A stretch of 64,000 bases of DNA from Escherichia phage UE-S1, in sequence record ON568341.1; one strand, 5' to 3'. The notes under the pieces were generated by a model. The model was not told the DNA's origin. It searched no databases and worked only from the letters and a program-made list of their open reading frames with translations. Within the stretch, counting starts at the first letter, position 1, and every line of letters starts with the position of its first letter. The position numbers were made by a program, and so were the translations under genes. Below, one piece after another: positions 9,443 through 50,810 of the stretch.

Positions 9443-9652
9443 ATGAACTATACAGTATACAGCGTTCTAGGCACTATTGCAGGCGTACATGATAACGTCG
9501 ATGGTGCTATGCGTACAGTACTGCAACAGGTTCCACTAAAGCCTAAGACCATTAAGCAGATGACAGCACGACTAACCAGGGCGACGGCTGGCGTGGAAGT
9601 ATGGCAGGACTATGGGGATACACAGATAATCGTAAGCGTAACGAAGGATTAA
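9443..9652 (+). CDS. hypothetical protein (69 aa)
   Basis: RBS CAGGAG upstream. Confidence 0.55.
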   Translation: MNYTVYSVLGTIAGVHDNVDGAMRTVLQQVPLKPKTIKQMTARLTRATAGVEVWQDYGDTQIIVSVTKD

Positions 9653-9680
9653 TGCGTAAAAGGATTTAGTACTGATTCAG

Positions 9681-9747
9681 AAAAAAGTCAAGGCGTTTTT
9701 TAAATTATGCGTTAAAAAAATGCATAGGTAATCCCTTGACTTTTTTG
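9681..9747. promoter_or_regulatory. long inverted repeat at module boundary (13-bp arms AAAAAAGTCAAGG / CCTTGACTTTTTT)
   Basis: perfect arms ~40 bp apart, T-run after right arm; possible terminator of early unit. Confidence 0.4.
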
Positions 9748-9843
9748 AAATAAAAGGGATTGGACTATGGCAAAATGCGTAGGGGGCTAAAGGGCGGGTA
9801 ACCTTAGCGACTTCGTTAAAGGGGTATTACGAATAAAATGTTA

Positions 9844-9871
9844 TTGACTTTTTATATAAATCGTATAAAAT
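9844..9871 (+). promoter_or_regulatory. sigma70-type promoter (TTGACT-16-TAAAAT) for FamA array
   Basis: TTGACT 9844-9849; only clear promoter before a 6-kb run of overlapping genes. Confidence 0.45.
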
Positions 9872-9901
9872 ATGATTGATAATAATTTTAAGGGAGTCCC
9901 T

Positions 9902-10099
9902 GTGCGTATTTTAACTCAAGCAGAACACCACGAAAGACTTATCAATAACATGGCTATGATAATGTATAAGTCCCATGACCGTGGTATTGCATATAAGCGT
10001 GAATTAGTACTGGAACTATTCATTGGGACTAACTATCAGGAAAGGTATGTCAACGATTGGATTTGGTATTTAATTGAAGATATAACGAGTAAACTATGA
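9902..10099 (+). CDS. FamA small paralog (LGTNYQE family)
   Basis: GTG 9902 after AAGGGAG RBS (track ATG 9872 sits inside promoter); motif FIGTNYQERYV. Confidence 0.6.
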   Translation: MRILTQAEHHERLINNMAMIMYKSHDRGIAYKRELVLELFIGTNYQERYVNDWIWYLIEDITSKL

Positions 10100-10290
10100 T
10101 AATTTTAACTAAAGAAGAATATCAATCACTGTTACGTAAAAACTACGTAAAGATTTACAATACAGCCACACACGTAGAACGAATGGAGTTATACCTTTTG
10201 ATTACATTGGGAACTAACTATCAGGAAAGATGGGTGATTCAATATATGGATACATTGAAAAATAAAATATTGTCCACGAGGAAACAATGA
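10096..10290 (+). CDS. FamA small paralog
   Basis: motif LGTNYQERWV; 4-nt overlaps. Confidence 0.65.
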   Translation: MIILTKEEYQSLLRKNYVKIYNTATHVERMELYLLITLGTNYQERWVIQYMDTLKNKILSTRKQ

Positions 10291-10496
10291 AAATCATAAC
10301 ACACAGACAAGCATTGAGTCGTATGGTGAAGTATCTTGAATTGATGGTGTCTATACCAAAGAGCTTACCAAAAACTGAAAGAGAGATACATTCAGCAGAG
10401 TATCGTCTATTAGCAGTACTGAATACTAACTACCAAGATGAATATGTTGACGATTGGATTCTATCATTAATAGAAGATATAAAGAGTAAACTATGA
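10287..10496 (+). CDS. FamA small paralog
   Basis: motif LNTNYQDEYV. Confidence 0.65.
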   Translation: MKIITHRQALSRMVKYLELMVSIPKSLPKTEREIHSAEYRLLAVLNTNYQDEYVDDWILSLIEDIKSKL

Positions 10497-10708
10497 ATAT
10501 CATTGCGAACTCACATCAATATACCGAACGCGTCGCTGCCAGACAACTTGAAATCCTCATAATATACGAAGAAACTTCTGATTTAAACTTAGCTGAGGTA
10601 TTGGAAAATGAAATACTTTTGGGTGCATTCTTGGGAACAGACTATCAGGAGTATTATGAGGAAAAGTATTTGTCATCTCTTGAGAAATACATCAGGAGTA
10701 AACAATGA
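10493..10708 (+). CDS. FamA small paralog
   Basis: motif LGTDYQEYYE. Confidence 0.65.
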   Translation: MNIIANSHQYTERVAARQLEILIIYEETSDLNLAEVLENEILLGAFLGTDYQEYYEEKYLSSLEKYIRSKQ

Positions 10709-10932
10709 AACATTTAAGTATAAGAGAGAAGAATAAAATTATCATCAATGTCATGAACCGATATAATCAACTATTGGATAGAGAATACTCAAGTTCATAT
10801 GTGCACAGGATAAACACTACGGATGTACGCATGATGGCTGTACTGGGGACAAACTATCAGGAAAGTTATGTTCATGAGCACATAGTTGCACTCACTAATT
10901 ACATAATGGACAAATGTAATGAACATCATTAA
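10705..10932 (+). CDS. FamA small paralog
   Basis: motif LGTNYQESYV. Confidence 0.65.
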   Translation: MKHLSIREKNKIIINVMNRYNQLLDREYSSSYVHRINTTDVRMMAVLGTNYQESYVHEHIVALTNYIMDKCNEHH

Positions 10933-11143
10933 TAACTTTGAATACGAGGCCCGTGTTAAGAGTGCCAGAGAAAAAGAGAACACCATTTACTTCACTATGA
11001 TGTACTTACAATGGACTGAAATTGAAGAAAAGGTTGCTGAAGTATGGATGTTGGAATTCATGGGGACGCAGTATCAGAATATGTTTGCGGGTGAGTATAT
11101 CAATGTTCTTATGAAACAAATAGAAAGGAAGGAAAAGAACTAA
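10919..11143 (+). CDS. FamA small paralog
   Basis: motif MGTQYQNMF. Confidence 0.6.
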   Translation: MNIINNFEYEARVKSAREKENTIYFTMMYLQWTEIEEKVAEVWMLEFMGTQYQNMFAGEYINVLMKQIERKEKN

Positions 11144-11232
11144 TGGAGGGATGCTGTACTTTATTTGAACTTTTATATATTCATGAACACATAGTTGCCC
11201 TCACAAATCTAATAAAGGATAAATGTAAATGA
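11143..11232 (+). pseudogene. truncated FamA paralog remnant (29 codons)
   Basis: encodes MEGCCTLFELLYIHEHIVALTNLIKDKCK; 3-prime part matches C-terminus of gene 10705-10932 (HEHIVALTNYIMDKC); central motif deleted; start/stop overlaps retained. Confidence 0.4.
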
Positions 11233-11486
11233 AACACTTGACTGATGATGAACATGAAACTATAATTCGTAAACTAACCCCCATCACAAGGATAGTATAC
11301 GGTGATCCCAGCCTTACATGGAACCAAATGCAAGCTAAAGTTAATGAGCTATGGTTGCTGTACTTTATGGGGACTCAATATCAAGATAAGTTTTGCACAG
11401 AATATATCGAACAATTAACGAATGTTATACAGGATAAACTAAATGAACGAATTGTGGAAAAATATGAAAACTTTATCAAGCATTGA
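11229..11486 (+). CDS. FamA small paralog
   Basis: motif MGTQYQDKF. Confidence 0.6.
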   Translation: MKHLTDDEHETIIRKLTPITRIVYGDPSLTWNQMQAKVNELWLLYFMGTQYQDKFCTEYIEQLTNVIQDKLNERIVEKYENFIKH

Positions 11487-11715
11487 GTATCAGACTGCCC
11501 TCTTCTCTCTTCTAAATACCCTCCGCACGAACAATAAACTTTATAATTCCCGTGAAGCTGATATTGTCAACGCTGATGTATATCTTAATAAATTCATTGG
11601 GACTAACTATCAAGAACTGTTTGTTTTACGATATATCTCTGCACTAAGAAACGAAATATCAGATAAAACCCGACAAGCCAGAAGAGAATGGAAGAAACAA
11701 TGCGACACAGACTAA
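11443..11715 (+). CDS. FamA small paralog
   Basis: motif IGTNYQELFV. Confidence 0.6.
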   Translation: MNELWKNMKTLSSIEYQTALFSLLNTLRTNNKLYNSREADIVNADVYLNKFIGTNYQELFVLRYISALRNEISDKTRQARREWKKQCDTD

Positions 11716-11951
11716 ATCACAAAATGTATTGTAAACTATTACAGGAACTGACACAGAAACACTATAATACAATATCTTCCATATTACCCTATGATATCAT
11801 GCGTTTAATTCATAGTGAGGCAGAGATGTTAGTACTGATGACCGGTACTGATAAAATAGCAATCACCAGATCGATAGAGCAATATATTGATGCACACTGT
11901 CAATGTATTAGAACTGAGATATGGAGGCGAGTAAATGAAAGTACTGAATGA
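11688..11951 (+). CDS. FamA-like divergent paralog
   Basis: motif degenerate (MTGTDKIAI); same size and packing. Confidence 0.5.
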   Translation: MEETMRHRLNHKMYCKLLQELTQKHYNTISSILPYDIMRLIHSEAEMLVLMTGTDKIAITRSIEQYIDAHCQCIRTEIWRRVNESTE

Positions 11952-12150
11952 GTATCAGTATCATTGGAGGTTACAAACTATAAGAGGGAAAGTTGTTAGT
12001 ATTTCTTTAGACAAGTCTATTGCACAAGAGGACAAATGTGTTATAATAGCTGAAATGAAGTTGGGTGTATTTGTAGGAACAAACTATCAAAACATCTACA
12101 CTGACGTATTATTAAGTGCCTTACGCAACAAGGTGTTATCCAGAGAATGA
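11935..12150 (+). CDS. FamA small paralog
   Basis: motif VGTNYQNIYT. Confidence 0.65.
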   Translation: MKVLNEYQYHWRLQTIRGKVVSISLDKSIAQEDKCVIIAEMKLGVFVGTNYQNIYTDVLLSALRNKVLSRE

Positions 12151-12365
12151 GAAAATTAATAGGTTACGAATATGTTAAGCTTCTGAAAACCTGTAGTATT
12201 AGCAGGGTAAAGATTCAATCTGATAAGAGTATTCCTGTTGAACTAAAGTACGCAATGATGGCTGAACTTTATGTAGGTGCACTATTGGGGACAAACTATC
12301 AACAAATGTATGTAGACCTATGGGTTGACGCTCTACAGAAAGAGGTCCAAAGTAAATGCAAATGA
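12147..12365 (+). CDS. FamA small paralog
   Basis: motif LGTNYQQMYV. Confidence 0.65.
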   Translation: MRKLIGYEYVKLLKTCSISRVKIQSDKSIPVELKYAMMAELYVGALLGTNYQQMYVDLWVDALQKEVQSKCK

Positions 12366-12577
12366 TTCATTTATCTTACTATGAATATCAAAAACGTTTA
12401 AATGCATCAAGAGGTATAAGGATTCAAATCTTCAATAACAAAAGATTGAAATCTGAAGCCAAAAAAATCAAAATCATAGAAGCAGAGTTGTGCAACTTTC
12501 TAGGGACGAACTATCAGGAAGGTAAGATAAAAAACTATCTTAGAGAACTAATGATTAGTATCAAGAGTAAATGTTAG
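12356..12577 (+). CDS. FamA small paralog
   Basis: motif LGTNYQEGKI. Confidence 0.65.
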   Translation: MQMIHLSYYEYQKRLNASRGIRIQIFNNKRLKSEAKKIKIIEAELCNFLGTNYQEGKIKNYLRELMISIKSKC

Positions 12578-12581
12578 GCAG

Positions 12582-12839
12582 ATGTACATGAAAATGATTA
12601 AATTATCTCAAGCAAAATATAAAGAACGCCTGGAAAAAATTACACCTAAACTTAATGAAATCCATCACGGAGAAGTCATTAAACACGGAAATAAGATGAT
12701 TATGAAACTTGAGTTAAAGGTGGGTGCATTCATAGGAACAAACTATCAGGAGTATTATGTAGATGAATACATAATCGCACTTAAGAGATACATTGGAAGA
12801 AAACTATATCTACAAACTAAAGAATTGTATTGCAAATAA
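12582..12839 (+). CDS. FamA small paralog
   Basis: motif IGTNYQEYYV. Confidence 0.65.
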   Translation: MYMKMIKLSQAKYKERLEKITPKLNEIHHGEVIKHGNKMIMKLELKVGAFIGTNYQEYYVDEYIIALKRYIGRKLYLQTKELYCK

Positions 12840-12850
12840 ATGTGAGGTTG

Positions 12851-13120
12851 ATGAACATGCAAATGATTAATTTAAGTAAAGATGAATATACCGAGCGTAT
12901 GACAAAAATTACGCACAAACGTAATACAATCTATCACAACCCAGAAATTCAACACAGTAAGAAAATGATTATGATGCGTGAGTTAAAGATGGGTGTATTC
13001 TTAGGAACAAACTATCAAGATACAGAAGTAAATCGCTTAATCGCGGAGTTACTACTGGAAATCAGAGGTAAGCTGTACTTTCATCAAATGACCCAACCAC
13101 TGAGGTGTACTAAGAAATGA
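12851..13120 (+). CDS. FamA small paralog
   Basis: motif LGTNYQDTEV; start chosen downstream of previous stop. Confidence 0.6.
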   Translation: MNMQMINLSKDEYTERMTKITHKRNTIYHNPEIQHSKKMIMMRELKMGVFLGTNYQDTEVNRLIAELLLEIRGKLYFHQMTQPLRCTKK

Positions 13121-13332
13121 TCAACATCACATTGCAAGAAAGATTCATCCGAATCAACTATGCAATTACCAAATTAGATGCTACTATAGGATTCCAAAGT
13201 CTACCGTTCCAAACAAGAATGATATTAGAGTGCGAAGCTAAATTGGGTGTACTGTTAGGAACGCAACACCAACAACGATATGTGGAAATCTGGATTGATC
13301 TTTTAACCCAAAATGTACATGAGAAAATGTAA
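13117..13332 (+). CDS. FamA small paralog
   Basis: motif LGTQHQQRYV. Confidence 0.65.
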   Translation: MINITLQERFIRINYAITKLDATIGFQSLPFQTRMILECEAKLGVLLGTQHQQRYVEIWIDLLTQNVHEKM

Positions 13333-13569
13333 ATGAAAAATGAAATGATATACTTAACGAATGAAGAGTTTCAAGAGAAGATGTTAAAAATCTATGATAA
13401 TACTCTTGAGTACGTTCCAAATCAATCAATATATGAAGTGTCTGCGAATGTATTATTTCAGAAGCTACCATACGTTCTTGGTACTGATAAACAAGAATTT
13501 ATGGTCAAAAATATGATTGAACATCTTATGATGAGTATTAAGGAAAAAGTAAATGCAAAAACAAAATAA
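13333..13569 (+). CDS. FamA small paralog
   Basis: motif LGTDKQEFMV. Confidence 0.6.
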   Translation: MKNEMIYLTNEEFQEKMLKIYDNTLEYVPNQSIYEVSANVLFQKLPYVLGTDKQEFMVKNMIEHLMMSIKEKVNAKTK

Positions 13570-13570
13570 A

Positions 13571-13816
13571 ATGATATACTTAACACCTGCTGAGTTAACA
13601 GAAAGACTAGTTAAATCCAGAAGATATACAAATCAACTTCCTCACAACCCAAATCAAAGCCCAGCGGAAAGGAGTGCAGAAGTTTTATTCCAATCACTAC
13701 CATACCTTCTTGGAACTAATAGACAAGAGTATCATATCGAACGTATAATTAAATATCTTAAAATTACTATTAAGGAAAAGATACATGCTCAAGAATTTAA
13801 AAATCCTAACAGCTAA
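13571..13816 (+). CDS. FamA small paralog
   Basis: motif LGTNRQEYHI. Confidence 0.6.
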   Translation: MIYLTPAELTERLVKSRRYTNQLPHNPNQSPAERSAEVLFQSLPYLLGTNRQEYHIERIIKYLKITIKEKIHAQEFKNPNS

Positions 13817-14027
13817 TGAATATCATAAGATTGTAATGACGACTAATAGTGCAATTTCTAAAAAATCAAATCCCAAATACATACTGGAACACACATTTGA
13901 AGAACGACAATTAACTTTAGTTGAAGCAAAACTTCTTGCACTCCTAGGAACAAACTATCAAGAAGAGTACGTTAGAAAACTAATATACCTTTTAACTAAA
14001 CATATTAGAAAAAAGAAAAACGCATGA
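13785..14027 (+). CDS. FamA small paralog
   Basis: motif LGTNYQEEYV. Confidence 0.6.
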   Translation: MLKNLKILTANEYHKIVMTTNSAISKKSNPKYILEHTFEERQLTLVEAKLLALLGTNYQEEYVRKLIYLLTKHIRKKKNA

Positions 14028-14254
14028 AACACTTGACAGATGATGAACATGGGCTTATAGTAATGGATGTAATCAACATCGAATACAAAAAGTTGATACG
14101 CTACCGTTGTTATGAAGATAAGCAACTCGTTCTAGAAGAACAGAAGTTGTTTCGACTCTTAAACACAAACTACCAAGCACAATACGAAGAATCGTATATG
14201 TACCTTTTGGCGAGGAAAGCAAAAAGAGATTATGAAAATTTTAAGCGAAGGTGA
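14024..14254 (+). CDS. FamA small paralog
   Basis: motif LNTNYQAQYE; N-terminus MKHLTDDEH shared with gene 11229. Confidence 0.65.
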   Translation: MKHLTDDEHGLIVMDVINIEYKKLIRYRCYEDKQLVLEEQKLFRLLNTNYQAQYEESYMYLLARKAKRDYENFKRR

Positions 14255-14447
14255 TGCAGTAATATTACTTATCGAGAATTCACGTAAATTCGTAAACATA
14301 ACACTGTCTGATATAGATGAAGATGACAAAGAAGTACTGAGAGCAGATTTAAGAGTACTGTTACATCTCGGAACAAACCTACAAGAAAGATATGTAGAGT
14401 TCTACATTGATGAACTTAAAGAATCAGTACTGAAAAGATGCAAATGA
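14232..14447 (+). CDS. FamA small paralog
   Basis: motif LGTNLQERYV. Confidence 0.6.
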   Translation: MKILSEGDAVILLIENSRKFVNITLSDIDEDDKEVLRADLRVLLHLGTNLQERYVEFYIDELKESVLKRCK

Positions 14448-14665
14448 AAATCATTACTGACGAAGAATACCTAACAATCATAAATGGACTGTTTTTGAAG
14501 CTATATGCTATTAACATATCAAACCTACCAGATATGGATAAAATTATTAAGAGAAATGAAATCTATGTTCTAGCTACCCTGGGAACTAACTATCAAGAAT
14601 ACGATATTAATGATTATATTAAGACACTTAAACGAGCGATTGAACTAAAATGCCAAAACCACTAG
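14438..14665 (+). CDS. FamA small paralog
   Basis: motif LGTNYQEYDI. Confidence 0.65.
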   Translation: MQMKIITDEEYLTIINGLFLKLYAINISNLPDMDKIIKRNEIYVLATLGTNYQEYDINDYIKTLKRAIELKCQNH

Positions 14666-14865
14666 GAACAGCAGAATACATTGAACTCATGGGATTACAC
14701 TTCTCATCCTTTCAGAAACTTATGCGAGAATCAAAGAATGATTTAGAATATACCATCAGAGGTTCAGATTTAAGAATGCTTCTCACCCTAGACACAGATT
14801 CCCAAGAGCGATTTGTCAATGAGCACATTAGAGCACTTTTAATGGAAATTCAAAGTAAACTATGA
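14650..14865 (+). CDS. FamA small paralog
   Basis: motif LDTDSQERFV. Confidence 0.6.
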   Translation: MPKPLGTAEYIELMGLHFSSFQKLMRESKNDLEYTIRGSDLRMLLTLDTDSQERFVNEHIRALLMEIQSKL

Positions 14866-15077
14866 AGGAAATATCAAACCAAGAGTACTTGGCACTATTC
14901 AGAAAGAATAATCATAAATTTATGGCACTTGATACAAGAACTGATATAGGGGAACTTGAAAAAAATCTTTTGCGTTCAGAGATGATAGTACTGACACTTT
15001 TAGGAACACAGCATCAAGAGAGAACTGTTAATTCATATATTGAGATTCTTACGAAGCTTATACAGGAAAAACTATGA
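14862..15077 (+). CDS. FamA small paralog
   Basis: motif LGTQHQERTV. Confidence 0.65.
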   Translation: MKEISNQEYLALFRKNNHKFMALDTRTDIGELEKNLLRSEMIVLTLLGTQHQERTVNSYIEILTKLIQEKL

Positions 15078-15295
15078 GAATCATAACACAAACAGACATA
15101 TTTAAGTTAGCAAGAGAACATACATCTGAAATTGATGCTATAGTATCAAAAAGTTACAATGACCCTTATACACAAGATGTACACTACAATGAATTATGGG
15201 TGTATATACTTTTAGGTACAAATTATCAAGAGCAAGCAGTACAGAAGTATTTGACAGCCTTAAGTACTGCTATTGCTAATGGAATAGGTGTTTAA
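15074..15295 (+). CDS. FamA small paralog
   Basis: motif LGTNYQEQAV. Confidence 0.65.
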   Translation: MRIITQTDIFKLAREHTSEIDAIVSKSYNDPYTQDVHYNELWVYILLGTNYQEQAVQKYLTALSTAIANGIGV

Positions 15296-15539
15296 AATGC
15301 TAGTACTGACAGAACTAGAAATGTATCATAGATTTAACAAGTACTATCATTTACTTAAGCCTATACAGAGGATTAAATGTCCATTTGAAGAGAAACAGGT
15401 ATTAATTTATGAGCATAAGTTATTTGTATCATTAGGTACGAATGAACAAGAGTATTATTTGAAGTTGTACTTAATTACTTTAATTGAATTGATTAATCAC
15501 AAAACTCAGAAAGCTAAGAAATCTAAAAATGAAAACTAA
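15288..15539 (+). CDS. FamA small paralog
   Basis: motif LGTNEQEYYL. Confidence 0.6.
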   Translation: MFKMLVLTELEMYHRFNKYYHLLKPIQRIKCPFEEKQVLIYEHKLFVSLGTNEQEYYLKLYLITLIELINHKTQKAKKSKNEN

Positions 15540-15867
15540 TATTCAACTCAAGGTATACATATCTTATGAATCTATATACATCAAATGCAGTCTATGTAAA
15601 GATGTAATGGATTATAAAGGTAAGCCATTCACAATTACTTACAGTCTAACAGGAGGTTTTTATATATCTTTTGTTGATTACGAAAATAAAATATACAAGC
15701 ACATTGATATTAAAGATTTAAGTACCTTGTCAGATGAGGAATACTTTCAAGAATCATTAGTATGGGATTTAGAGTTTCCTATGACATTAGTACACAAAAT
15801 GATAGTTCTAATGAAAGAAACTAAACCTGAGCCGAGTGGTTATGAAGAATTCATTATTGAGTATTAA
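15529..15867 (+). CDS. FamB paralog (FQ-S motif family)
   Basis: motif SDEEYFQESLVWD. Confidence 0.6.
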   Translation: MKTNIQLKVYISYESIYIKCSLCKDVMDYKGKPFTITYSLTGGFYISFVDYENKIYKHIDIKDLSTLSDEEYFQESLVWDLEFPMTLVHKMIVLMKETKPEPSGYEEFIIEY

Positions 15868-15879
15868 GAGTACTGATAT

Positions 15880-16095
15880 ATGAAAATATTATCATACAAA
15901 GATTATAGTAAGCTTATCAGTGCTTTGCAACCAGAAATTAGGAGAATTAATTCTCTTCCTGTATCTAATGCAGAATGTACAGTACTGAAAAAAGAGTTAA
16001 TATTAAAACGCACAGTAGGTACTAACTATCAGGATAATAGTGTTCGAGATTTAATTAGAGGGTTAATGAACACAATAAAGGCCAAGTGCCATTGA
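15880..16095 (+). CDS. FamA small paralog
   Basis: motif VGTNYQDNSV. Confidence 0.6.
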   Translation: MKILSYKDYSKLISALQPEIRRINSLPVSNAECTVLKKELILKRTVGTNYQDNSVRDLIRGLMNTIKAKCH

Positions 16096-16405: not shown

Positions 16406-16722
16406 AATTTAATATAGCAAAAACATCGAATGTATGTATATTTGGTTATGCAGATGAGTTAGGTGATCTTGACATTCTTTTGTACAAAAAGGATGGTGTT
16501 ATGCATTTCAAGTACCAGGATGAAGAGGCAGACAATTATCCTTTACCTAATTTAGTACAAATGCAGGAAGAGGAATTATTCCAGTACAGCTTAGTATATG
16601 ACATTGATATTTGCACGATGCCAGTACTAATTAATATTCAAAAAGTGATGCTCGATGTGTTTGATAGGCTAATACAAGGCACACAAGGAAGAACCATATA
16701 TGTCAATGTACAAGACAATTAA
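16402..16722 (+). CDS. FamB paralog
   Basis: motif EEELFQYSLVYD; ATGA overlap. Confidence 0.6.
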   Translation: MKFNIAKTSNVCIFGYADELGDLDILLYKKDGVMHFKYQDEEADNYPLPNLVQMQEEELFQYSLVYDIDICTMPVLINIQKVMLDVFDRLIQGTQGRTIYVNVQDN

Positions 16723-16915
16723 TCAAGAATGGAAGACCCAAAAATACAGAGAATTCAATAGGAATTTTACAAAAGACGAATTGAATATAAAAACAACAGA
16801 ATTTGATATGTTTATTTTTCTCGGAACACGTTCACAGGAGCAATTTGTTCATTATTATATAAATTCGTTGCGAACGGAGATAGTATGCAAAACAAAGGGT
16901 ATTATAAAAAGGTAA
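16700..16915 (+). CDS. FamA-like paralog
   Basis: motif LGTRSQEQFV. Confidence 0.55.
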   Translation: MSMYKTINQEWKTQKYREFNRNFTKDELNIKTTEFDMFIFLGTRSQEQFVHYYINSLRTEIVCKTKGIIKR

Positions 16916-17151
16916 ACCAACATTTGTACGCTACAAAGTACAGGGATTTTTGTTTAAAGGGTGGTGATGAAGATTTTTCTTTGCGATTATCAGAATTTAA
17001 TCTGTTATTTTATCTTGGTACATCGGAACAAGAAGAAATGGCACAGAAATTTATCAAGCACCTTGTACAAAAAATTAATATGCAAATTTTGATGCTTAAG
17101 TTACAGAATGAGATAAATGAATATGAACCCAACAATAGTACTGGATCTTAA
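16885..17151 (+). CDS. FamA-like paralog
   Basis: motif LGTSEQEEMA. Confidence 0.55.
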   Translation: MQNKGYYKKVNQHLYATKYRDFCLKGGDEDFSLRLSEFNLLFYLGTSEQEEMAQKFIKHLVQKINMQILMLKLQNEINEYEPNNSTGS

Positions 17152-23542: not shown

Positions 23543-24271
23543 ATGAAATATAAAGAATTTTGTATAAAAACATGGATGTACACTGGTGAATTGCTTACGT
23601 GTTGTAATTTGTACAAGCGTGATGTAAACTTCACAAAGGACAAAGTTATCAAGTATGAAAATTCTCAATTTTATTTGATGGATTTTAGTACTGGGTTTCA
23701 TGGTAAATCAACCGAGATGCTGGATTATACATTAATGGATGAGGCGGCACTATTTCAAGAATCATTAGTATTTGATAAGAAGTACATCTGTACATTAGAA
23801 GAGATGATTGAAATTCAGAATAAAATTAAATGTGTTCACAGGGAATGTATTGATAAATGGTGTAAAACTGGTGAAACTGATTTTAGTAATCATTTTAATC
23901 TAGGAGAAAGAGTGATGGAATTTGATTTTTTAATATCAGTGCATACATTCAAGAATACACATCAGTACTTTTGTAATTTAAACAAAGGTGATTTAATGCA
24001 CAGTGCGAATGAGTATATTCATTTTATGGATGGTAAATTCACATTCATTGATTACAGTTCATTACAATATCCACATCAAGATATGCCGGACTATACAATA
24101 ATGAATGAGGCTGAACTATTTCAAGCTTCATTAGTATTTGACAAGAAGTACATCTGTACATTTGAAGAAGTAATTACTATACAAAATGAAATGAAGGAGT
24201 ATGCATCTTTGAATAAACCCAATGAAGGTATTAATCAAGAATACAAATTCAATATAGAGATTCCAAAATGA
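23543..24271 (+). CDS. FamB paralog with two tandem copies of the conserved module
   Basis: DEAALFQESLVFDKKYICTLEEMIEIQNKIK and NEAELFQASLVFDKKYICTFEEVITIQNEMK in one 242-aa ORF. Confidence 0.6.
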   Translation: MKYKEFCIKTWMYTGELLTCCNLYKRDVNFTKDKVIKYENSQFYLMDFSTGFHGKSTEMLDYTLMDEAALFQESLVFDKKYICTLEEMIEIQNKIKCVHRECIDKWCKTGETDFSNHFNLGERVMEFDFLISVHTFKNTHQYFCNLNKGDLMHSANEYIHFMDGKFTFIDYSSLQYPHQDMPDYTIMNEAELFQASLVFDKKYICTFEEVITIQNEMKEYASLNKPNEGINQEYKFNIEIPK

Positions 24272-24627
24272 CATATGATTACTCTATGTACTATTATAAG
24301 TTACCTAAAGGATGGGACTTGTGCTGTAATCTTATTAAGGGAGACTCGGAACATGAGTTGAATTTATATATGCACTACAAAGATTCTTGTTTTAAATTTA
24401 TTCATGTATCACATGATGACTATGACTATGAATCTGAGAGTCTTATAGATTATACAGTACTGGACGATGGCGAACTATTTCAGGAAGCATTAGTGTTTGA
24501 TAAGAATAAGTACTCCTGTACATTTGAAGAAATGGTTTCTTTGCAAACTGAAATGAAGAGATTTGAAAAAGAAAACGTATTTAATCCATCCCCATCAAGA
24601 ACGAATAATTATTATTTCAATATATGA
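24268..24627 (+). CDS. FamB paralog
   Basis: motif DGELFQEALVFDKNKYSCTFEEMVSLQTEMK, near-identical to modules of upstream gene. Confidence 0.6.
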   Translation: MTYDYSMYYYKLPKGWDLCCNLIKGDSEHELNLYMHYKDSCFKFIHVSHDDYDYESESLIDYTVLDDGELFQEALVFDKNKYSCTFEEMVSLQTEMKRFEKENVFNPSPSRTNNYYFNI

Positions 24628-24636
24628 GATTATAAA

Positions 24637-25110
24637 ATGACATTACAGAGTTCATTGGAAAAAGCAAAGAAGATCCATGAGTACATGAATATGGCAAAAG
24701 AAGGTTCAGTTTACGGTGTTTTCAAAGACACAAGTACTCAATATTATGTGCCGGATAACCTCCTTTATAATGACTACTCAGATACAGAAACGTGCGTACT
24801 GGATACCGACCCTAAAGATTATGAATGTTTCATTGATATGCATTATGAGTACATGGTCTATATTAATGATGCAGATATTACCATCTACAGTACTGACAGC
24901 GATTCCGATGACATTATAATTCCGAGTGAAGTTCTGGAAGGTCCGTGGGATAGTGAAGAGTATTACTTCCAACAAAGTACTGTGTATGATGAAGAAGTTT
25001 TAGATGTTATTGTAATTATGTGGTATTTTAAAAGTATTGGTTCTGGGAACTTCTATTTCGATTACAAATACGTAAAGAAAACTGTAGATAACGGTATTAA
25101 CAGGGGTTGA
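24637..25110 (+). CDS. FamB paralog, subfamily B2
   Basis: N-terminus MTLQSSLEKAKKIHEY; motif EEYYFQQSTVYD..IVIMWYFKS. Confidence 0.65.
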   Translation: MTLQSSLEKAKKIHEYMNMAKEGSVYGVFKDTSTQYYVPDNLLYNDYSDTETCVLDTDPKDYECFIDMHYEYMVYINDADITIYSTDSDSDDIIIPSEVLEGPWDSEEYYFQQSTVYDEEVLDVIVIMWYFKSIGSGNFYFDYKYVKKTVDNGINRG

Positions 25111-25111
25111 A

Positions 25112-25582
25112 ATGAGTTTAGAAAGAGCATTAGAGATTGCGAAGTTAATTGATTTATGCAGCAAAGAAATTGTATCAAATTGTCTCAATGGATATCTATT
25201 CAAGGAAGGTAAATCATATTGTCGAATGAGATACGATGACAGTAGTGAGTATATTCACATGTATGAAGAAGACCTTGATGATTCCGAAATAACACTGAAT
25301 GGGTGTGATGTTAATCTGGAAGATAATTACATTTACTTCAGTCGTGGTGCTGATATTTTAATACAAGAAACATCAATTCAACATGTGAATCCAGATGTAT
25401 ATCTTCCATATTCAGTACTGGATAATGACTGGGGAAGTGAAGAGGTTTACTTTCAGCATAATACTATCTATGATGAAGATGTGCTTGACAAGCTTGTCAT
25501 TCTGTGGTACTTTAAGAACACTGATACTCCCAACTTCTATATGGATTTGGATCTACTACGAGTTATAAAAGAGGATATATGA
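25112..25582 (+). CDS. FamB paralog, subfamily B2
   Basis: motif EEVYFQHNTIYD..LVILWYFKN. Confidence 0.65.
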   Translation: MSLERALEIAKLIDLCSKEIVSNCLNGYLFKEGKSYCRMRYDDSSEYIHMYEEDLDDSEITLNGCDVNLEDNYIYFSRGADILIQETSIQHVNPDVYLPYSVLDNDWGSEEVYFQHNTIYDEDVLDKLVILWYFKNTDTPNFYMDLDLLRVIKEDI

Positions 25583-26022
25583 GTTTAGCAAGTGCACTTA
25601 AACTGGCACACAAAATACATCACTTCCACGATAACATAAAAAGTGGGTTTTATGGTGATAAAGTACATACATATGGAAATGAATATTATCTATCAGGTGT
25701 GACAAGATACTCTAATGATATTTTACTTATGGGATGTGATAAAGATAACTTCATGCAGTACACGTCATGTAGCTTATACACTAATTTTATTGTATATATG
25801 CCTGGTGCTAATATTACATTTGACACATCAAATACCTCGGTAGATTTTGGAATACTGGATGGGCCGTGGGGGACTGAAGAGTATTACTTCCAACAGAGTT
25901 TTATTTTCAGCCAAGAAATGCTTGATTCCTTGGTTGTTTTGTGGTACTTTAAGGAATTAGATATAGAACCCTTCTTTATGGACTGGGGGGCGTGTGAGTA
26001 TTTAGAGACAGAGGTATATTAA
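25579..26022 (+). CDS. FamB paralog, subfamily B2
   Basis: motif EEYYFQQSFIFS..LVVLWYFKE. Confidence 0.65.
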   Translation: MSLASALKLAHKIHHFHDNIKSGFYGDKVHTYGNEYYLSGVTRYSNDILLMGCDKDNFMQYTSCSLYTNFIVYMPGANITFDTSNTSVDFGILDGPWGTEEYYFQQSFIFSQEMLDSLVVLWYFKELDIEPFFMDWGACEYLETEVY

Positions 26023-26510
26023 TGTCATTGCAGAGTGCATTAAAAGAGGCAAAGAAGATTCATGAGTACATGATTATGGTACAGGAAGGTTTAGTGCCTG
26101 GTGTATACAAAACATCAGATACGGAATTCTTTGTTCTGGACAGGGATGATTATGATGAGTCCGAGGTACATGCTGAAACATTAGTTCTGCACACTGATAC
26201 TGGTGATAGTGACAACTGTGAATATCATATGTACAATCAATACATTAGTTATTGCCGTAATGAAGATATTACCATCTACAACACAGATATTGATGCTGAT
26301 GACACTATCATTCCATATTCAGTTCTGGAAGGTCCGTGGGATAGTGAAGAGTATTACTTTCAGAATAGTACTATCTACAGTGAAGAAGAACTGGATGTTA
26401 TTGTGATTATGTGGTACTTTAAAAGTATTGACTCCAGTAGTTTCTATTTTGATTATGAATATGTAGAGAATACAGTAGGAGAAGGTAATGTCATTACAAA
26501 GTGCTCTTGA
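26022..26510 (+). CDS. FamB paralog, subfamily B2
   Basis: motif EEYYFQNSTIYS; near-duplicate of 24637-25110. Confidence 0.65.
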   Translation: MSLQSALKEAKKIHEYMIMVQEGLVPGVYKTSDTEFFVLDRDDYDESEVHAETLVLHTDTGDSDNCEYHMYNQYISYCRNEDITIYNTDIDADDTIIPYSVLEGPWDSEEYYFQNSTIYSEEELDVIVIMWYFKSIDSSSFYFDYEYVENTVGEGNVITKCS

Positions 26511-26934
26511 AAAAGCAAAAGAACTACATGGATACTTTGAAGATATAAAGGCAGGAAAGTTCAAAGAAGTATACAAAACCGAGAACGGTAACTACTACAA
26601 AGATGAAATATATAATAATTCCGTTGGTGTAAGGGTTATTCTTGGGTTGAATTCCAATAGTCCTGTGTCGTTTTCTGAATACAATAGAGATGCAGAATTC
26701 ATTAGTTATGTTGAAAATGGTAGCATTCGTTTTATTAATAGACAAAAACCATTAATTTTGAATTATGAAGTTCTGGATGGTCAGTGGAATAATGAAGAGT
26801 ATTACTTCCAAAACAGTACTGTATACGACGATGAAGTACTTGAAGCATTAGTTATTATGTGGTACTTCAAGAGTATTAACTGTCCTCGATTTTATTTGGA
26901 TTTCGAAGAACTTGGTAAAGATCCAGAGGTATAG
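26488..26934 (+). CDS. FamB paralog, subfamily B2
   Basis: motif EEYYFQNSTVYD. Confidence 0.65.
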   Translation: MSLQSALEKAKELHGYFEDIKAGKFKEVYKTENGNYYKDEIYNNSVGVRVILGLNSNSPVSFSEYNRDAEFISYVENGSIRFINRQKPLILNYEVLDGQWNNEEYYFQNSTVYDDEVLEALVIMWYFKSINCPRFYLDFEELGKDPEV

Positions 26935-26935
26935 A

Positions 26936-27250
26936 ATGAAAAACTTATTCAGTGTTCAGTACGTTCCAGGTGAAATTAGTTTATTGTATCTCTTTGACCA
27001 TGATAATTCATTATTACTAGTAGTGAAGAAATGCCAAGCTAGTTCGTTTGTTGAATACATTCACGATAATGAATATATACCTGATTTTTTAGAGTGTGAT
27101 TATCACGATGAACATGAATCATTTATTTTCCAGGAATCGCTAGTATGGGATAAGTCGATTAACTTTTTTACGTTAATTGAATTACAAAAGCAGGTGAAAT
27201 ATCATTGGGATTACTTAATTACCCAAGACTACATAGAGATAGAAATATAA
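26936..27250 (+). CDS. FamB paralog
   Basis: motif ESFIFQESLVWD; ATG 26936 just after upstream stop. Confidence 0.55.
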   Translation: MKNLFSVQYVPGEISLLYLFDHDNSLLLVVKKCQASSFVEYIHDNEYIPDFLECDYHDEHESFIFQESLVWDKSINFFTLIELQKQVKYHWDYLITQDYIEIEI

Positions 27251-27558
27251 TGACTAAAAATGAATTTGATTCACTTTGTACGGTTTATAATTCATTGACA
27301 GCAATACCTGACTTTATTAATTATATTTCAGCTTTAAATCACATTATGCATAGTTTTGAACAATCATTTGAAGAGAAATATGCTGGAAGAAAAGTTCTAT
27401 GTCATATGACAATGTACTTAGGAGATGGTGAGCCTTACACTACAAGTACTACATGTGAAATAAAAAAATATAATATATTATTGGGAACTATAGAATTCAC
27501 AGTATCCAATGGCGGTAGTTATATGTACTTTAGAGATGGAGTGGTTGAATTATTATGA
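27250..27558 (+). CDS. hypothetical protein
   Basis: TAATG overlap; no FamB motif. Confidence 0.45.
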   Translation: MTKNEFDSLCTVYNSLTAIPDFINYISALNHIMHSFEQSFEEKYAGRKVLCHMTMYLGDGEPYTTSTTCEIKKYNILLGTIEFTVSNGGSYMYFRDGVVELL

Positions 27559-28004
27559 GTTACGAAAGTGCAATCAAGAAAGCAAATGATATTCTACGCG
27601 TCGTTCAATTCTTCAAAGAAAATCCTGAATACGTAGATGATAAAAACCAAGAGAACGATGAGAGATTGAGACGAAAAATTATCTCTTTATTTGACACTAA
27701 TAAAGATAATTGGAGTCTATGTGAGTTAGCATACGATTATATTTCATTGAACCGAAATGATGATGTAGTTAAGATAGAAAGGCATGAATCAGAAGAATCT
27801 TTTAAAATTTCAGATATTTTATCCCTGAGTACTGAAGAAGGGTACTTCCAGGGTAGCACTCTTTATAATGAAGAAACACTTGACAATCTATGCACATTCA
27901 GTGTAATATATCAGAAATCTGTACTAGATATATTTTATCTTGACACTGCTGAACTGCATACCCTAACCAATTTTGTTACTACCGAAGAGGCTACATTCGA
28001 GTGA
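27555..28004 (+). CDS. FamB paralog
   Basis: motif EEGYFQGSTLYN. Confidence 0.6.
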   Translation: MSYESAIKKANDILRVVQFFKENPEYVDDKNQENDERLRRKIISLFDTNKDNWSLCELAYDYISLNRNDDVVKIERHESEESFKISDILSLSTEEGYFQGSTLYNEETLDNLCTFSVIYQKSVLDIFYLDTAELHTLTNFVTTEEATFE

Positions 28005-28537
28005 TGAAAGTTAACATTAATGACTTTGATGCATTACAAGATTTATCAAAAAAGATTCGCACCATCGTACCAGTACTTAAAAAATGCAGTACTGGTTTAA
28101 TCGATCCTAGTACTGTTGTTAATGAGAAGTACAATTTTCATCGTGTATTACAGGGGACAGGTGCATTTCAGAAGTGTGAGGTACGTGAGAAACATGTAAT
28201 TGATACATCGTTGTTTTCTATTGGTGCACCTGTGTCAAACAATACTATTTTCCTGGATGCCTCTGGAAATATTCAACAATTAACATTTAAGAAAAGGAAA
28301 AAGAATAATAACATTGGTGTGTACGCGATGAAGTGGGGACAGCCAGCGTTGATGCGTGACATTCACATTCCTAAGTACAATTTCAATGCATTTGAAGAAC
28401 AGTGTTTTCAACTTTCTTGTACTGACCCTGACTATGCTATCATTCAATTCTATATGGAATTGCAGATTGCATTTAATAGTAATTTGTATATTAACTTATT
28501 GGCAATGAACATAGATGAAGTATTCAAAAACATTTAA
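28001..28537 (+). CDS. FamB-like paralog
   Basis: motif EEQCFQLSCTDP (divergent). Confidence 0.5.
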   Translation: MMKVNINDFDALQDLSKKIRTIVPVLKKCSTGLIDPSTVVNEKYNFHRVLQGTGAFQKCEVREKHVIDTSLFSIGAPVSNNTIFLDASGNIQQLTFKKRKKNNNIGVYAMKWGQPALMRDIHIPKYNFNAFEEQCFQLSCTDPDYAIIQFYMELQIAFNSNLYINLLAMNIDEVFKNI

Positions 28538-28733
28538 TCGAATTGAATACATGAGAACTGTGAGAGCGGTGTGGAATATATGGTACACTACTAAACCAAA
28601 AATGGATTACCATGATTTTAAGCTCTTGTTCTTTGTTGGCTCTAACAAACAGGATGTTGCAATGAAGGGTTATATTCAGCACTTACAGGAACTAATCCAG
28701 AAGAGAATATATGAAAATAATAGACCAAAATGA
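28515..28733 (+). CDS. FamA-like paralog inside FamB array
   Basis: motif VGSNKQDVAM; start uncertain. Confidence 0.5.
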   Translation: MKYSKTFNRIEYMRTVRAVWNIWYTTKPKMDYHDFKLLFFVGSNKQDVAMKGYIQHLQELIQKRIYENNRPK

Positions 28734-28902
28734 CATTGCTAAACTATTCAATATATATTCTACTAGAATGATGCAAACAGATTCATATAGTACTAAATTC
28801 AAAGAGTTGAAAGTACTGATGTACTTGGGAACACAATATCAGGAACAAGTTATTTTAGAATATATTAATTCATTAAAGAAGGATATCCGTGATGTACGAT
28901 GA
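28711..28902 (+). CDS. FamA paralog inside FamB array
   Basis: motif LGTQYQEQVI. Confidence 0.55.
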   Translation: MKIIDQNDIAKLFNIYSTRMMQTDSYSTKFKELKVLMYLGTQYQEQVILEYINSLKKDIRDVR

Positions 28903-29452
28903 TTTAGATCTTGCGTTTGAACGCATGAAAATTTTAATGCAATGCAATGAAATGCATGAGACAATCCGTCGCACCAAAGGGATTGAATATACAAGTAAAC
29001 TATTCTCATACGAAAGTCGTCGAGGGATGGATCATTTTTACTGCACTGATTGTTCAAAGTTTTCAGTACTGAAATATTATCATCCTACTGTTTCCAATAA
29101 TAGTTTAATATCCACATATGACGGTGATCTGTTTAGTGTAATGTATGACACATTACATCCATCAATTTCAATATATAAAGATTGCGATAGTAGTCTATCG
29201 TATATAATTGAAGATTACTTATCTCCTAATACTGAAGAGAATATATTTCAAAACAGTGTATTGCATGATGAATTAAGTATAAAATGCATCTATATGTTCA
29301 ATAAGTTAAAAGAATACGTTGATAATAATTACTTAATTGATGAGTTAGCTGTGTTTTCGGTTTCAGTTTTCAATACAAATGATGTTGATATGAAATACTA
29401 TAATGAAATTTGTAAAGTACATAACATGTATAAGGAACTCTTATGCTACTAA
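28889..29452 (+). CDS. FamB paralog
   Basis: motif EENIFQNSVLHD. Confidence 0.6.
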   Translation: MMYDDLDLAFERMKILMQCNEMHETIRRTKGIEYTSKLFSYESRRGMDHFYCTDCSKFSVLKYYHPTVSNNSLISTYDGDLFSVMYDTLHPSISIYKDCDSSLSYIIEDYLSPNTEENIFQNSVLHDELSIKCIYMFNKLKEYVDNNYLIDELAVFSVSVFNTNDVDMKYYNEICKVHNMYKELLCY

Positions 29453-30045
29453 ATGCCAATAAATGTTGTAGTGCAGATGTGCATTTGTTTTTTAAGAAAT
29501 TGGCAAATGATATTATATATATGCAGGAAATGATTTACCACAAACGAACAGATTTAGAAAAAGCATTAGTACAGTTCTCCTTTATGCTTGATGGTGATAT
29601 ATTTCTACATGGTGATACATTGCGAACAGTACTGGACGGAAATTCAAATAGAAGTTTCATTTGTACAAATAATAAATTTTCTTCCACGATGTGCCGTACT
29701 TTTTATAATCCTGATTCGGACTTATATCAAGTGTCGTATTCTAAAGGTGCAGTTGAATCATCATATTGTGATAGTTCAGCTTTAGGTAAAAGTCGTCCAT
29801 ATATGCAATCATTTGAAATTGAACTCATCAGTACTGATGAAGATGCAATGTTCACAAATGATATAACGATGGATCGTGAATCGGCAATGATATATATTAC
29901 AAATTCTATGCATACATTCTTTCAACGATTAGAATTTGATAATGTATATATATCAAATGTAAATATTTTCAATGATCTGTGTCAGTACTTGAAAAGTGTT
30001 TGTGATTTTGATGAAAGCTATTGTAAGCTTTATACTGAGGTATAA
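29443..30045 (+). CDS. FamB-like divergent paralog
   Basis: degenerate motif EDAMFTNDITMD. Confidence 0.5.
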   Translation: MLLNANKCCSADVHLFFKKLANDIIYMQEMIYHKRTDLEKALVQFSFMLDGDIFLHGDTLRTVLDGNSNRSFICTNNKFSSTMCRTFYNPDSDLYQVSYSKGAVESSYCDSSALGKSRPYMQSFEIELISTDEDAMFTNDITMDRESAMIYITNSMHTFFQRLEFDNVYISNVNIFNDLCQYLKSVCDFDESYCKLYTEV

Positions 30046-30050
30046 AACAA

Positions 30051-30413
30051 ATGAACACATTAAGTATTACATACTATACAACTAAAAAATTAATTACTTG
30101 TTTAATATCATTGAAGTCAAAAAATGATGATATGTTTGATATGGCTGCATATGAATTAGAATTATCAGAAGATGGTTTCAAGATCTATGAAGTATATAGC
30201 TATGTTCGTGAAGATGTAATTGACACTACACTAATGCAAGAGGATGAGTTATTCCAAGAAAGTTTAGTATGGGATAATAAGTACGATTGTAACTTTGATT
30301 TCTTATGTTTAATCCAAAAAGAAATGAAAAGAATCTTTGATAATTATCCAATCAAACGTTTCAGTACTGCACCTGAGCAATATAAAAGGATTATATTCAC
30401 CTATGAAGATTGA
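30051..30413 (+). CDS. FamB paralog
   Basis: motif EDELFQESLVWD. Confidence 0.6.
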   Translation: MNTLSITYYTTKKLITCLISLKSKNDDMFDMAAYELELSEDGFKIYEVYSYVREDVIDTTLMQEDELFQESLVWDNKYDCNFDFLCLIQKEMKRIFDNYPIKRFSTAPEQYKRIIFTYED

Positions 30414-31100: not shown

Positions 31101-31107
31101 GGTCTTT

Positions 31108-31670: not shown

Positions 31671-31703
31671 CCCTTTATATTAATTTTAAAGGGTTATAAC
31701 ACA

Positions 31704-50800: not shown

Positions 50801-50810
50801 GAGGTTACAT

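What the first reader, a model, noticed from the sequence alone, without database searches (positions are those of the whole stretch)
11143..11232. Truncated FamA paralog retaining start/stop coupling
Between two full-length FamA genes lies a 29-codon ORF whose 3-prime end encodes HEHIVALTNLIKDKCK, matching the C-terminus of gene 10705-10932, and whose 5-prime part resembles the LLYF region of gene 11229, but the central GTNYQE motif is missing. It still overlaps the upstream stop (TAATG) and downstream start (ATGA). This is a direct footprint of intra-array deletion or recombination.
Basis: seen in the sequence. Interest (0 to 1): 0.45.

Follow-up and report, generated by a model that had tools for sequence, protein, structure and literature searches.

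The report
Decayed gene remnant in phage array
The 29-codon reading frame is the shrunken leftover of a 52-codon gene that related jumbo phages keep intact; this is ordinary gene decay in a fast-changing tandem array, notable only because the leftover still spans exactly from one neighbour's stop to the next neighbour's start.

Summary
Window 11143-11232 (+) is a 29-codon ORF. It overlaps the stop of gene 10919-11143 (TAATG) and the start of gene 11229-11486 (ATGA).

The window comes from an Asteriusvirus-like jumbo coliphage. "FamA" is PHROG 4148, function unknown, with about 30 tandem copies.

In slurp01, G17, SD-1_S14 and many metagenome contigs, the same slot holds an intact 52-codon short FamA gene: MVFINISDQLDTKLEVEQSEGWMLYFLGTSHQNFYIHEHIVALTNLIRDKCK. 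It has the same start and stop overlaps and evolves under purifying selection (pN/pS 0.17-0.37).

The window allele equals that gene minus 69 nt, either as 54+4+11 or as 58+11. Helix 2 and the GT-x-x-Q turn are gone. Codons 4-10 are frame-shifted, so the "MLYF" remnant is out of frame. The last 19 codons are in the original frame.

The same allele occurs in 8 independent metagenome contigs, so it is not an artefact. The chimeric look (5' like gene 11229, 3' like gene 10705) was already present in the 52-codon progenitor.

I found no evidence that the open frame is kept by selection. Chance alone gives about 0.16-0.24. The most it plausibly does is pass ribosomes to the downstream gene. Ordinary finding, low interest.

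The parts
9872..16095 (+). Core of the FamA (PHROG 4148) tandem array: about 26 genes of 64-96 codons, nearly all overlapping the previous gene. Further diverged members lie at 16700-17151 and 28515-28902.
   Evidence: Motif scan; family HMM; BLASTP cluster of 28 ORFs; PHROG 4148 hits at E 1e-16 to 1e-22. Junctions: 11 of 31 are ATGA overlaps and only 3 are gaps.
10705..10932 (+). Gene A, a full-length FamA member (75 aa). Its 3' end (10867-10923) is the in-window paralog of the remnant's 3' part.
   Evidence: 48/58 nt, E=2e-10.
10919..11143 (+). Gene B, a full-length FamA member (74 aa). Its TAA overlaps the remnant's ATG. It is 97.8% identical to slurp01 gene PSLUR01_00221. Its last codons carry the purine-rich AGGAAGGA (11126-11133), 9 nt before the remnant's ATG.
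11143..11232 (+). The 29-codon ORF: a degraded allele of the 52-codon short FamA gene (slurp01 PSLUR01_00222 / G17_00606).
11152..11172 (+). Frame-shifted stretch, codons 4-10 (CCTLFEL). It holds the out-of-frame remnant of the helix-2 end (G-M-L-Y-F-I at 11148-11165, then TGA at 11166-11168 in that frame) and GAACT from the G-T codons of the motif. It is bounded by the 4-nt (or 58-nt) deletion near 11145-11153 and by the 11-nt deletion after 11171.
   Evidence: L009/L012 still carry the ancestral GGAACT here.
11173..11229 (+). 19 codons still in the progenitor's frame (LYIHEHIVALTNLIKDKCK), corresponding to most of helix 3. 92.9% identical to slurp01's 52-codon gene, against 77-80% to the 3' end of gene A in SHEFM2K/UB.
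   Evidence: helix assignment from the AlphaFold model.
11215..11219 (+). AAGGA, a Shine-Dalgarno-like element 9 nt before the ATG of gene C, embedded in the remnant's last codons.
   Evidence: Read directly from the sequence. That it functions as a ribosome-binding site is inferred.
11229..11486 (+). Gene C, a FamA member (85 aa). Its ATG overlaps the remnant's TGA (ATGA). It is mosaic: 11229-11440 is 94.6-100% like SHEFM2K/UB/Turkey3, and 11441-11486 is 97.8% like slurp01.

Best explanation
The 29-codon ORF is a lineage-specific, decayed allele of a conserved 52-codon short member of the FamA / PHROG 4148 family. This family lies in a tandem, polycistronic array of an Asteriusvirus-like jumbo phage.

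Small deletions removed 69 nt. Two readings fit equally well: an in-frame 54 nt, then 4 nt from a GGATGGATG repeat, then 11 nt; or 58 nt flanked by ATGG microhomology, then 11 nt. What was lost encoded helix 2 and the GT-S-H-Q turn.

The start codon (inside TAATG) and the stop codon (inside ATGA) are simply the progenitor's own. The two frame-shifting deletions happen to cancel, so an open frame still runs from one to the other. Its product is 3 original residues, then 7 frame-shifted residues, then 19 residues of helix 3. It cannot form the three-helix FamA fold and is most likely not a functional FamA protein.

The retained 3' end carries the Shine-Dalgarno-like AAGGA and the ATGA overlap of the downstream gene. 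If the ORF does anything, it most likely carries ribosomes from gene B's stop to gene C's start (termination-reinitiation coupling).

Shown: origin, direction of change, lesions, presence in several independent samples. Inferred: loss of protein function, any coupling role.
For: 1. Same slot, same flanks. slurp01, G17, SD-1_S14 and PBECO4 have a 159-nt CDS between the orthologs of B and C with identical TAATG/ATGA overlaps.
2. The extra 69 nt encode family-like residues. The 52-aa product hits PHROG 4148 positions 27-72 (E=1.9e-10), while the 29-aa product hits nothing.
3. Removing 54+4+11 nt from the slurp01 allele gives a 90-nt ORF, MEGCCTFLELFYIHEHIVALTNLIRDKCK, with 6 mismatches to the window. 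The 58+11 solution is.
4. The 52-codon gene is intact in 5 DNA alleles from at least 12 loci, with pN/pS 0.17-0.37 in the informative comparisons (0 in two close pairs with no nonsynonymous change) and one-sided Fisher p 0.002-0.04 in 9 of 10 pairs (0.07 in the other). The long form is therefore the functional state.
5. The MLYF remnant is out of frame and hits a stop.
6. The 29-codon allele is present in 8 metagenome contigs from different runs that are only 96.2-98.6% identical to the window.
7. AlphaFold model of a full-length member: three helices (6-23, 31-45, 52-73), pLDDT 93, with the motif in the helix 2 to helix 3 turn. Only part of helix 3 survives in the remnant.
Against: - The frame is open in all 9 copies, and the deletions sum to a multiple of 3. 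A translated product therefore cannot be excluded.
- There are no expression data.
- The conservation test has no power: 0-2 mismatches in 85 nt, against a background median of 0-1.
- No intermediate allele (one deletion only) was found, so the order and number of events is unresolved.
Confidence: 0.82

Rival explanations
1. The open frame is maintained by selection as a translational relay. After a first frame-shifting deletion uncoupled gene C, a second compensating deletion was favoured because it again brought terminating ribosomes to the ATGA overlap.
For: Either frame-shifting deletion alone gives a stop 34-42 nt upstream of gene C's ATG. Together they restore an exact stop/start overlap. 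The array is otherwise almost gap-free: only 3 gaps at 31 junctions, the largest within 9872-15867 being 4 nt. Without this ORF there would be an 85-nt untranslated gap. The ORF stays open in the L009/L012 variant despite 2 substitutions.
Against: The chance expectation is not small. It is 1/2 (or 1/3) for frame restoration, times 0.47 for no stop in 7 shifted codons, giving about 0.16-0.24. Gene C has its own AAGGA at a good spacing. No RNA structure sequesters it (fold z=0.04). Relatives tolerate untranslated gaps of about 44-70 nt before truncated members in 121Q, Turkey3 and SHEFM2K. Conservation is not above background.
Confidence: 0.22
2. The ORF encodes a functional 29-residue micro-protein. 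One possibility is a single amphipathic helix derived from FamA helix 3 that binds or antagonises full-length FamA proteins.
For: An intact ORF with a Shine-Dalgarno-like AGGAAGGA 9 nt upstream and overlap-coupled ends. Nineteen residues of helix 3 are kept in frame. It is present in several samples.
Against: About a quarter of the peptide (7 of 29 residues) is frame-shifted sequence. Both substitutions seen among copies are non-synonymous and fall in or at the edge of the frame-shifted stretch (codons 8 and 11; F8L, L11I). There is no family match. All other lineages keep the 52-codon form under purifying selection, so this form looks like a loss, not an innovation.
Confidence: 0.06
3. The ORF was created in this genome by recombination between gene 11229 (donor of the 5' part) and gene 10705 (donor of the 3' part).
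For: The 5' 16-mer is 15/16 identical to gene 11229. The 3' part is 83% identical to gene 10705.
Against: The 52-codon progenitor at the orthologous slot already shows the same split resemblance. Its pre-motif part is closest to the B/C subgroup and its C-terminal 17 residues are closest to A. The remnant's 3' part is 92.9% identical to that progenitor, against 83% to gene 10705.
Confidence: 0.04
4. Assembly or sequencing artefact: collapse of repeated paralogs.
For: Tandem paralog arrays are prone to mis-assembly (general knowledge).
Against: An identical 90-nt allele occurs in 6 independent contigs and a 2-substitution variant in 2 more. They come from different sequencing runs, with otherwise differing flanks.
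Confidence: 0.01

Closest known systems
52-aa hypothetical protein of Asteriusvirus phages (slurp01 PSLUR01_00222 / SCA80199.1; G17_00606 / QBO62095.1; SD-1_S14 WPK19763.1)
   Same: Same slot between the orthologs of genes B and C, and the same ATG-in-TAATG start and TGA-in-ATGA stop. After allowing for 69 deleted nt, 84 of the 90 remaining nt are identical.
   Different: The window allele lacks 23 codons, including helix 2 and the GTSHQ turn. Seven codons are frame-shifted. It no longer matches PHROG 4148.
PHROG 4148 ('FamA'): a family of about 70-aa proteins of unknown function in Asteriusvirus jumbo phages
   Same: Genomic position inside the array. The C-terminal 19 residues align with family HMM positions 55-72.
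Gene remnants and pseudogenes left by unequal recombination or slippage in viral multigene arrays (general phenomenon; from my own knowledge, e.g. multigene families of large DNA viruses)
   Same: A tandem paralog array with copy-number and content differences between close relatives. There are five different arrangements at this one slot. A short remnant sits at the position of a gene that relatives keep.
   Different: Here the remnant remains an exact stop-to-start bridging ORF, because two frame-shifting deletions cancel.
Translational coupling through overlapping stop/start codons (ATGA, TAATG) in polycistronic bacterial and phage operons (textbook knowledge)
   Same: Both ends of the ORF have the canonical overlaps, and the array as a whole uses them.
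   Different: No RBS-occluding structure is predicted, and gene C has its own Shine-Dalgarno-like element.

Membership tests
PHROG 4148 (FamA) protein | Significant match to the family profile | tested here: not met
   hmmscan against PHROGs returns 0 families for the 29-aa product, while neighbours score E 1e-16 to 1e-22 and the 52-aa ortholog 1.9e-10. A custom HMM matches only positions 55-72, E about 1e-3.
PHROG 4148 (FamA) protein | Conserved turn motif G-T-[NQDS]-[YH]-Q (T invariant, Q at least 90% in the alignment) | tested here: not met
   Alignment A2 defines the motif. In the window only GAACT of the G-T codons remains, out of frame, and the S-H-Q codons are deleted.
PHROG 4148 (FamA) protein | Three-helix fold of about 70 residues | tested here: not met
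   The model of gene 10705-10932 has helices 6-23, 31-45 and 52-73 at pLDDT 93. The remnant keeps 19 residues of the last helix only. This is inferred by alignment; the 29-mer itself was not modelled.
PHROG 4148 (FamA) protein | Location in the tandem array with overlap-coupled boundaries | tested here: met
Gene remnant / pseudogene | Orthologous position holds an intact, selected gene in relatives | tested here: met
   52-codon gene in 5 alleles, pN/pS 0.17-0.37 in the informative pairs.
Gene remnant / pseudogene | Disabling lesions relative to that gene | tested here: met
   69 nt deleted, an internal frame-shifted stretch, motif lost.
Gene remnant / pseudogene | Relaxed constraint on the remaining sequence | tested here: inconclusive
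   0-2 mismatches in 85 nt among 8 contigs, indistinguishable from the background. Both substitutions are non-synonymous, but n=2.
Gene remnant / pseudogene | Not translated into a functional product | not testable with these tools
   Needs ribosome profiling, proteomics or genetics.
Translational-coupling bridge ORF | Stop overlaps the downstream start and start overlaps the upstream stop | tested here: met
   TAATG at 11141-11145 and ATGA at 11229-11232.
Translational-coupling bridge ORF | Downstream ribosome-binding site occluded by RNA structure unless the upstream ORF is translated | tested here: not met
   RNA fold of 11125-11250: -16.3 kcal/mol, z=0.04 against shuffles.
Translational-coupling bridge ORF | Downstream expression depends on translation of the ORF | not testable with these tools
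   Needs reporter fusions.

The most novel reading that the evidence does not exclude
The bridging frame is not an accident. In these gap-free phage arrays, loss of a gene would be tolerated only if ribosome hand-over to the next gene is preserved. A compensating second deletion would then have been selected, turning a dead gene into a pure 'relay ORF'. The second remnant in the array (12775-12870) and this one both keep only the 3' end next to the following start codon, which would fit such a rule.
Probability: 0.2. Interest if true: 0.45.

Novelty: new member of a known kind. Interest (0 to 1): 0.2.

Why it matters
It matters little on its own. It is a clean, datable example of how a tandem paralog array in a jumbo phage loses a member. 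Small microhomology or slippage deletions did it, not one large unequal crossover, and the translation signals of the next gene survived.

It shows that the 52-aa 'hypothetical protein' annotated in Asteriusvirus genomes is a real, selected short family member, and that one lineage has dispensed with it. It also flags the slot between genes A and C as a hot spot of cassette exchange. This is useful context for anyone trying to work out what PHROG 4148 proteins do.

For annotation, the 29-codon ORF should be labelled a remnant rather than a gene.

Tried and rejected
- IMG/VR exact-pattern scans for the deletion junction and for the conserved 3' segment found nothing, so that collection seems to lack these phages.
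- No public phage record in the INPHARED copy carries the 29-codon allele.
- I looked for intermediate alleles (one deletion only) and for a full-length ancestor through two protein searches and six further contig look-ups (one found nothing). Only 52-codon and 29-codon forms appeared, plus a 73-aa read-through on a 517-bp contig.
- Structured RNA or a known RNA family in the remnant: none.
- Promoter and terminator scans were at chance level (43 found against 42.6 expected).
- Literature: no description of this family or array in the papers searched.
- The idea that the genome's terminal-repeat boundary coincides with the remnant is rejected. In G17 the boundary lies about 100 nt upstream of the first array gene, roughly 1.3 kb upstream of the remnant's position in window coordinates.

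Full report
**What is there**

Window 11143-11232 (+) is an ATG-initiated ORF of 29 codons, MEGCCTLFELLYIHEHIVALTNLIKDKCK.
- Its ATG shares an A with the TAA of gene 10919-11143 (TAATG).
- Its TGA lies inside ATGA with the ATG of gene 11229-11486.
- Both neighbours are full-length members of a family of about 70-residue proteins with a conserved L-G-T-N-Y-Q-E turn.

The family has 28 members in the window by BLASTP clustering, about 30 with HMM-only hits. Of these, 26 lie head to tail between 9872 and 16095. Junctions in the array are almost all overlaps: 11 of 31 are ATGA and only 3 are gaps. No terminator-like site lies on the + strand, and a promoter-like site sits just before the first gene at 9844-9871. 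It therefore reads as one polycistronic block.

**Identity of the window and of the family**

The region is 83-93% identical to Asteriusvirus jumbo coliphages and Salmonella phages such as slurp01, PBECO4, G17, 121Q and SHEFM2K. No record matches closely throughout.

The family is PHROG 4148, 'unknown function'.
- No Pfam family reaches threshold.
- A profile search of 1.84 billion representative proteins finds only 84 clusters, nearly all 57-96 aa.
- An AlphaFold model of gene 10705-10932, built on the paralog alignment, is a confident three-helix bundle: pLDDT 93, helices 6-23, 31-45 and 52-73, with the motif in the turn between helices 2 and 3.

**Check of the observation**

The 3' similarity to gene 10705-10932 is significant at the DNA level: 48/58 nt, E=2e-10. 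A 27-mer with 3 or fewer mismatches is unique to that place, with 0 expected in shuffles.

The 5' similarity to the LLYF region of gene 11229 is also real: GGATGCTGTACTTTAT against GGTTGCTGTACTTTAT, with 0.07 matches expected by chance. It is read in a different frame, though. The family-like G-M-L-Y-F-I is in the frame that starts at 11142 and stops at TGA 11166-11168, whereas the ORF reads C-C-T-L-F there. The motif is gone, and the 29-aa product matches no PHROG.

**The decisive comparison**

In slurp01, G17 and SD-1_S14 the slot between the orthologs of B (10919-11143) and C (11229-11486) is a 159-nt annotated CDS. BLAST shows the same 69-nt-longer slot in PBECO4, JP4, CRJP21, Sharanji and three more SD phages. 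The CDS has the same TAATG start and ATGA stop, and it encodes MVFINISDQLDTKLEVEQSEGWMLYFLGTSHQNFYIHEHIVALTNLIRDKCK.

This product matches PHROG 4148 positions 27-72 (E=1.9e-10). It is a short member lacking helix 1 but keeping helix 2, the turn and helix 3.

Metagenome contigs add diverged alleles of the same length, such as MVFMKIFDQIDRELEVEQSDGWMLYFLGTSHQDYYIHHHIVTLKNLIRDKCK at 77% identity. In all there are 5 DNA alleles, every one open and every one with the same overlaps. Pairwise pN/pS is 0.17-0.37 in the informative comparisons, and one-sided Fisher p is 0.002-0.04 in nine of ten pairs. The 52-codon form is therefore a real, selected gene.

**How the window allele differs**

Alignment shows 69 nt missing.
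- One reading is a 58-nt deletion just after the ATG, flanked by ATGG microhomology when compared with the L013 allele, plus an 11-nt deletion (TCTCATCAAAA) inside the motif.
- The other, with no mismatch at the junction, is an in-frame 54-nt deletion (codons 2-19), loss of one GATG from GGATGGATG, and the same 11-nt deletion.

Applying the second recipe to the slurp01 allele gives a 90-nt ORF, MEGCCTFLELFYIHEHIVALTNLIRDKCK, with 6 mismatches to the window.

Codons 4-10 (11152-11172) are frame-shifted. The original frame resumes at 11173 for 19 codons. Either frame-shifting deletion alone would end the ORF 34-42 nt before gene C's ATG. The direction of change is not in doubt, because the extra 69 nt encode family-conserved residues and an out-of-frame piece of them survives in the window.

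**Not an artefact, and not unique to this sequence**

Eight metagenome contigs from different runs encode exactly the window's gene C, and all have the 85-nt interval. Six carry the identical 90-nt ORF. Two (L009, L012) carry TTT>TTG and TTA>ATA, still open and closer to the ancestral GGAACT.

These contigs are 96.2-98.6% identical to the window over 4-6 kb and differ in array content further downstream. The allele therefore marks a lineage. No isolate genome in the phage collection has it.

**Recombination context**

The slot is a hot spot. Five arrangements were seen:

| Genome(s) | Arrangement at the slot |
|---|---|
| 121Q | B then C |
| SHEFM2K, UB | A then C, with A ending ...HIVALTDLIRDKCK* |
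| Turkey3 | A, a different gene D, then C |
| slurp01 group | A, B, 52-codon gene, C |
| window lineage | A, B, remnant, C |

The 52-codon gene itself looks chimeric. Its pre-motif part is closest to the B/C subgroup and its last 17 residues are closest to gene A (13/17).

The window is also a mosaic around the remnant:
- B is 97.8% identical to slurp01.
- The remnant's 3' part is 92.9% identical to slurp01.
- Gene C positions 11229-11440 are 94.6-100% like SHEFM2K/UB/Turkey3 and only 74-81% like slurp01.
- The last 46 nt of gene C are again 97.8% like slurp01.

One exchange breakpoint therefore coincides with the remnant/C boundary.

**Does the open frame mean anything?**

The retained 3' end carries AAGGA (11215-11219) 9 nt before gene C's ATG, plus the ATGA overlap. 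Throughout the array, the last codons of each gene supply the purine-rich element of the next. That gives a simple reason why deletions that spare the 3' end are the ones that survive.

Whether the bridging ORF itself is selected cannot be shown:
- The chance that two frame-shifting deletions cancel is 1/2 (1/3 if unconditioned).
- The chance of no stop in 7 shifted codons is 0.47 empirically in this array, giving about 0.16-0.24 overall.
- Conservation among the 8 contigs equals background.
- No RNA structure occludes gene C's start (z=0.04), and no Rfam family matches.
- Relatives tolerate 44-70-nt gaps before other truncated members.

I therefore treat a relay function as possible (about 0.2) but unproven, and a functional micro-protein as unlikely.

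**Verdict**

The finding is correct and its interpretation essentially right. The feature is a lineage-specific remnant of a conserved short paralog in a rapidly reshuffled phage gene array. This is a known kind of event, well documented here, and of low general interest. The function of the family remains unknown.

Noticed in passing
window 12775-12870 (+): A second FamA 3'-end remnant in an alternative frame (…EENYIYKLKNCIANKCEVDEHAND; family HMM positions 55-71, E 0.02-0.04). It lies across the junction of genes 12582-12839 and 12830/12857-13120, both of which have unusual C-terminal extensions. The same remnant is conserved in slurp01, SD-1_S14, SHEFM2K, L010 and L015, so it is older than the one studied here.
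   Followed up: partly
window 11229-11486; L001, L004, L020, L021: Gene C is a patchwork. Positions 11229-11440 are 94.6-100% identical to SHEFM2K/UB/Turkey3 but only 74-81% to slurp01. Positions 11441-11486 are 97.8% identical to slurp01 and 69-73% to the others. One breakpoint sits exactly at the remnant/C boundary.
   Followed up: partly
L001, L013, L026-L031 (slot downstream of gene B): Gene B plus the 52-codon gene travel together as a cassette, while the gene that follows differs (MKHLTDDE…, MNHLTLDEF…, MKHVTDDEF…, MKRLSSREY…). B is 98.7% identical between slurp01 and L013, whereas A, the 52-codon gene and C are 85-88% identical.
   Followed up: partly
window about 9653-9871; L002, L032 (phage G17): In G17 the left genome end starts about 150 nt beyond the ortholog of window gene 9443-9652. 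The inner boundary of the long direct terminal repeat therefore falls in the intergenic region just upstream of the first FamA gene. A promoter-like TTGACT-16-TAAAAT lies at window 9844-9871. The array would then be the first operon outside the terminal repeat.
   Followed up: partly
L004:2030-2340 (SHEFM2K, PQ390715.1): The ortholog of gene C is an intact long ORF (MKHLTDDEFETII…) but is not annotated. Instead a 38-aa ORF in another frame (2103-2219) is called. Phage UB likewise lacks annotation for several array genes.
   Followed up: no
window 11688-11951 (+): A divergent array member in which the conserved turn is replaced by 'MTGTDKIAITRS' (a 7-residue insertion in the alignment, no Y-Q). 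It still scores E=9e-19 against the family HMM.
   Followed up: no
window 23543-33878 and 49960-51369 (+): Other paralog families in the window. One has 7 members of about 150-165 aa (24637-26934, 32177-32680, 33384-33878). One has 4 members (23543-24627, 30051-31100). One has 3 members (49960-51369).
   Followed up: no
protein P0008 (Escherichia phage UE-S1, UES1_281): A 48-aa annotated protein of phage UE-S1 (358,076 bp; PMC12805682) is identical to the last 48 residues of window gene B. UE-S1 may be the source of the window or a very close relative. Its genome was not in the searchable collections.
   Followed up: partly
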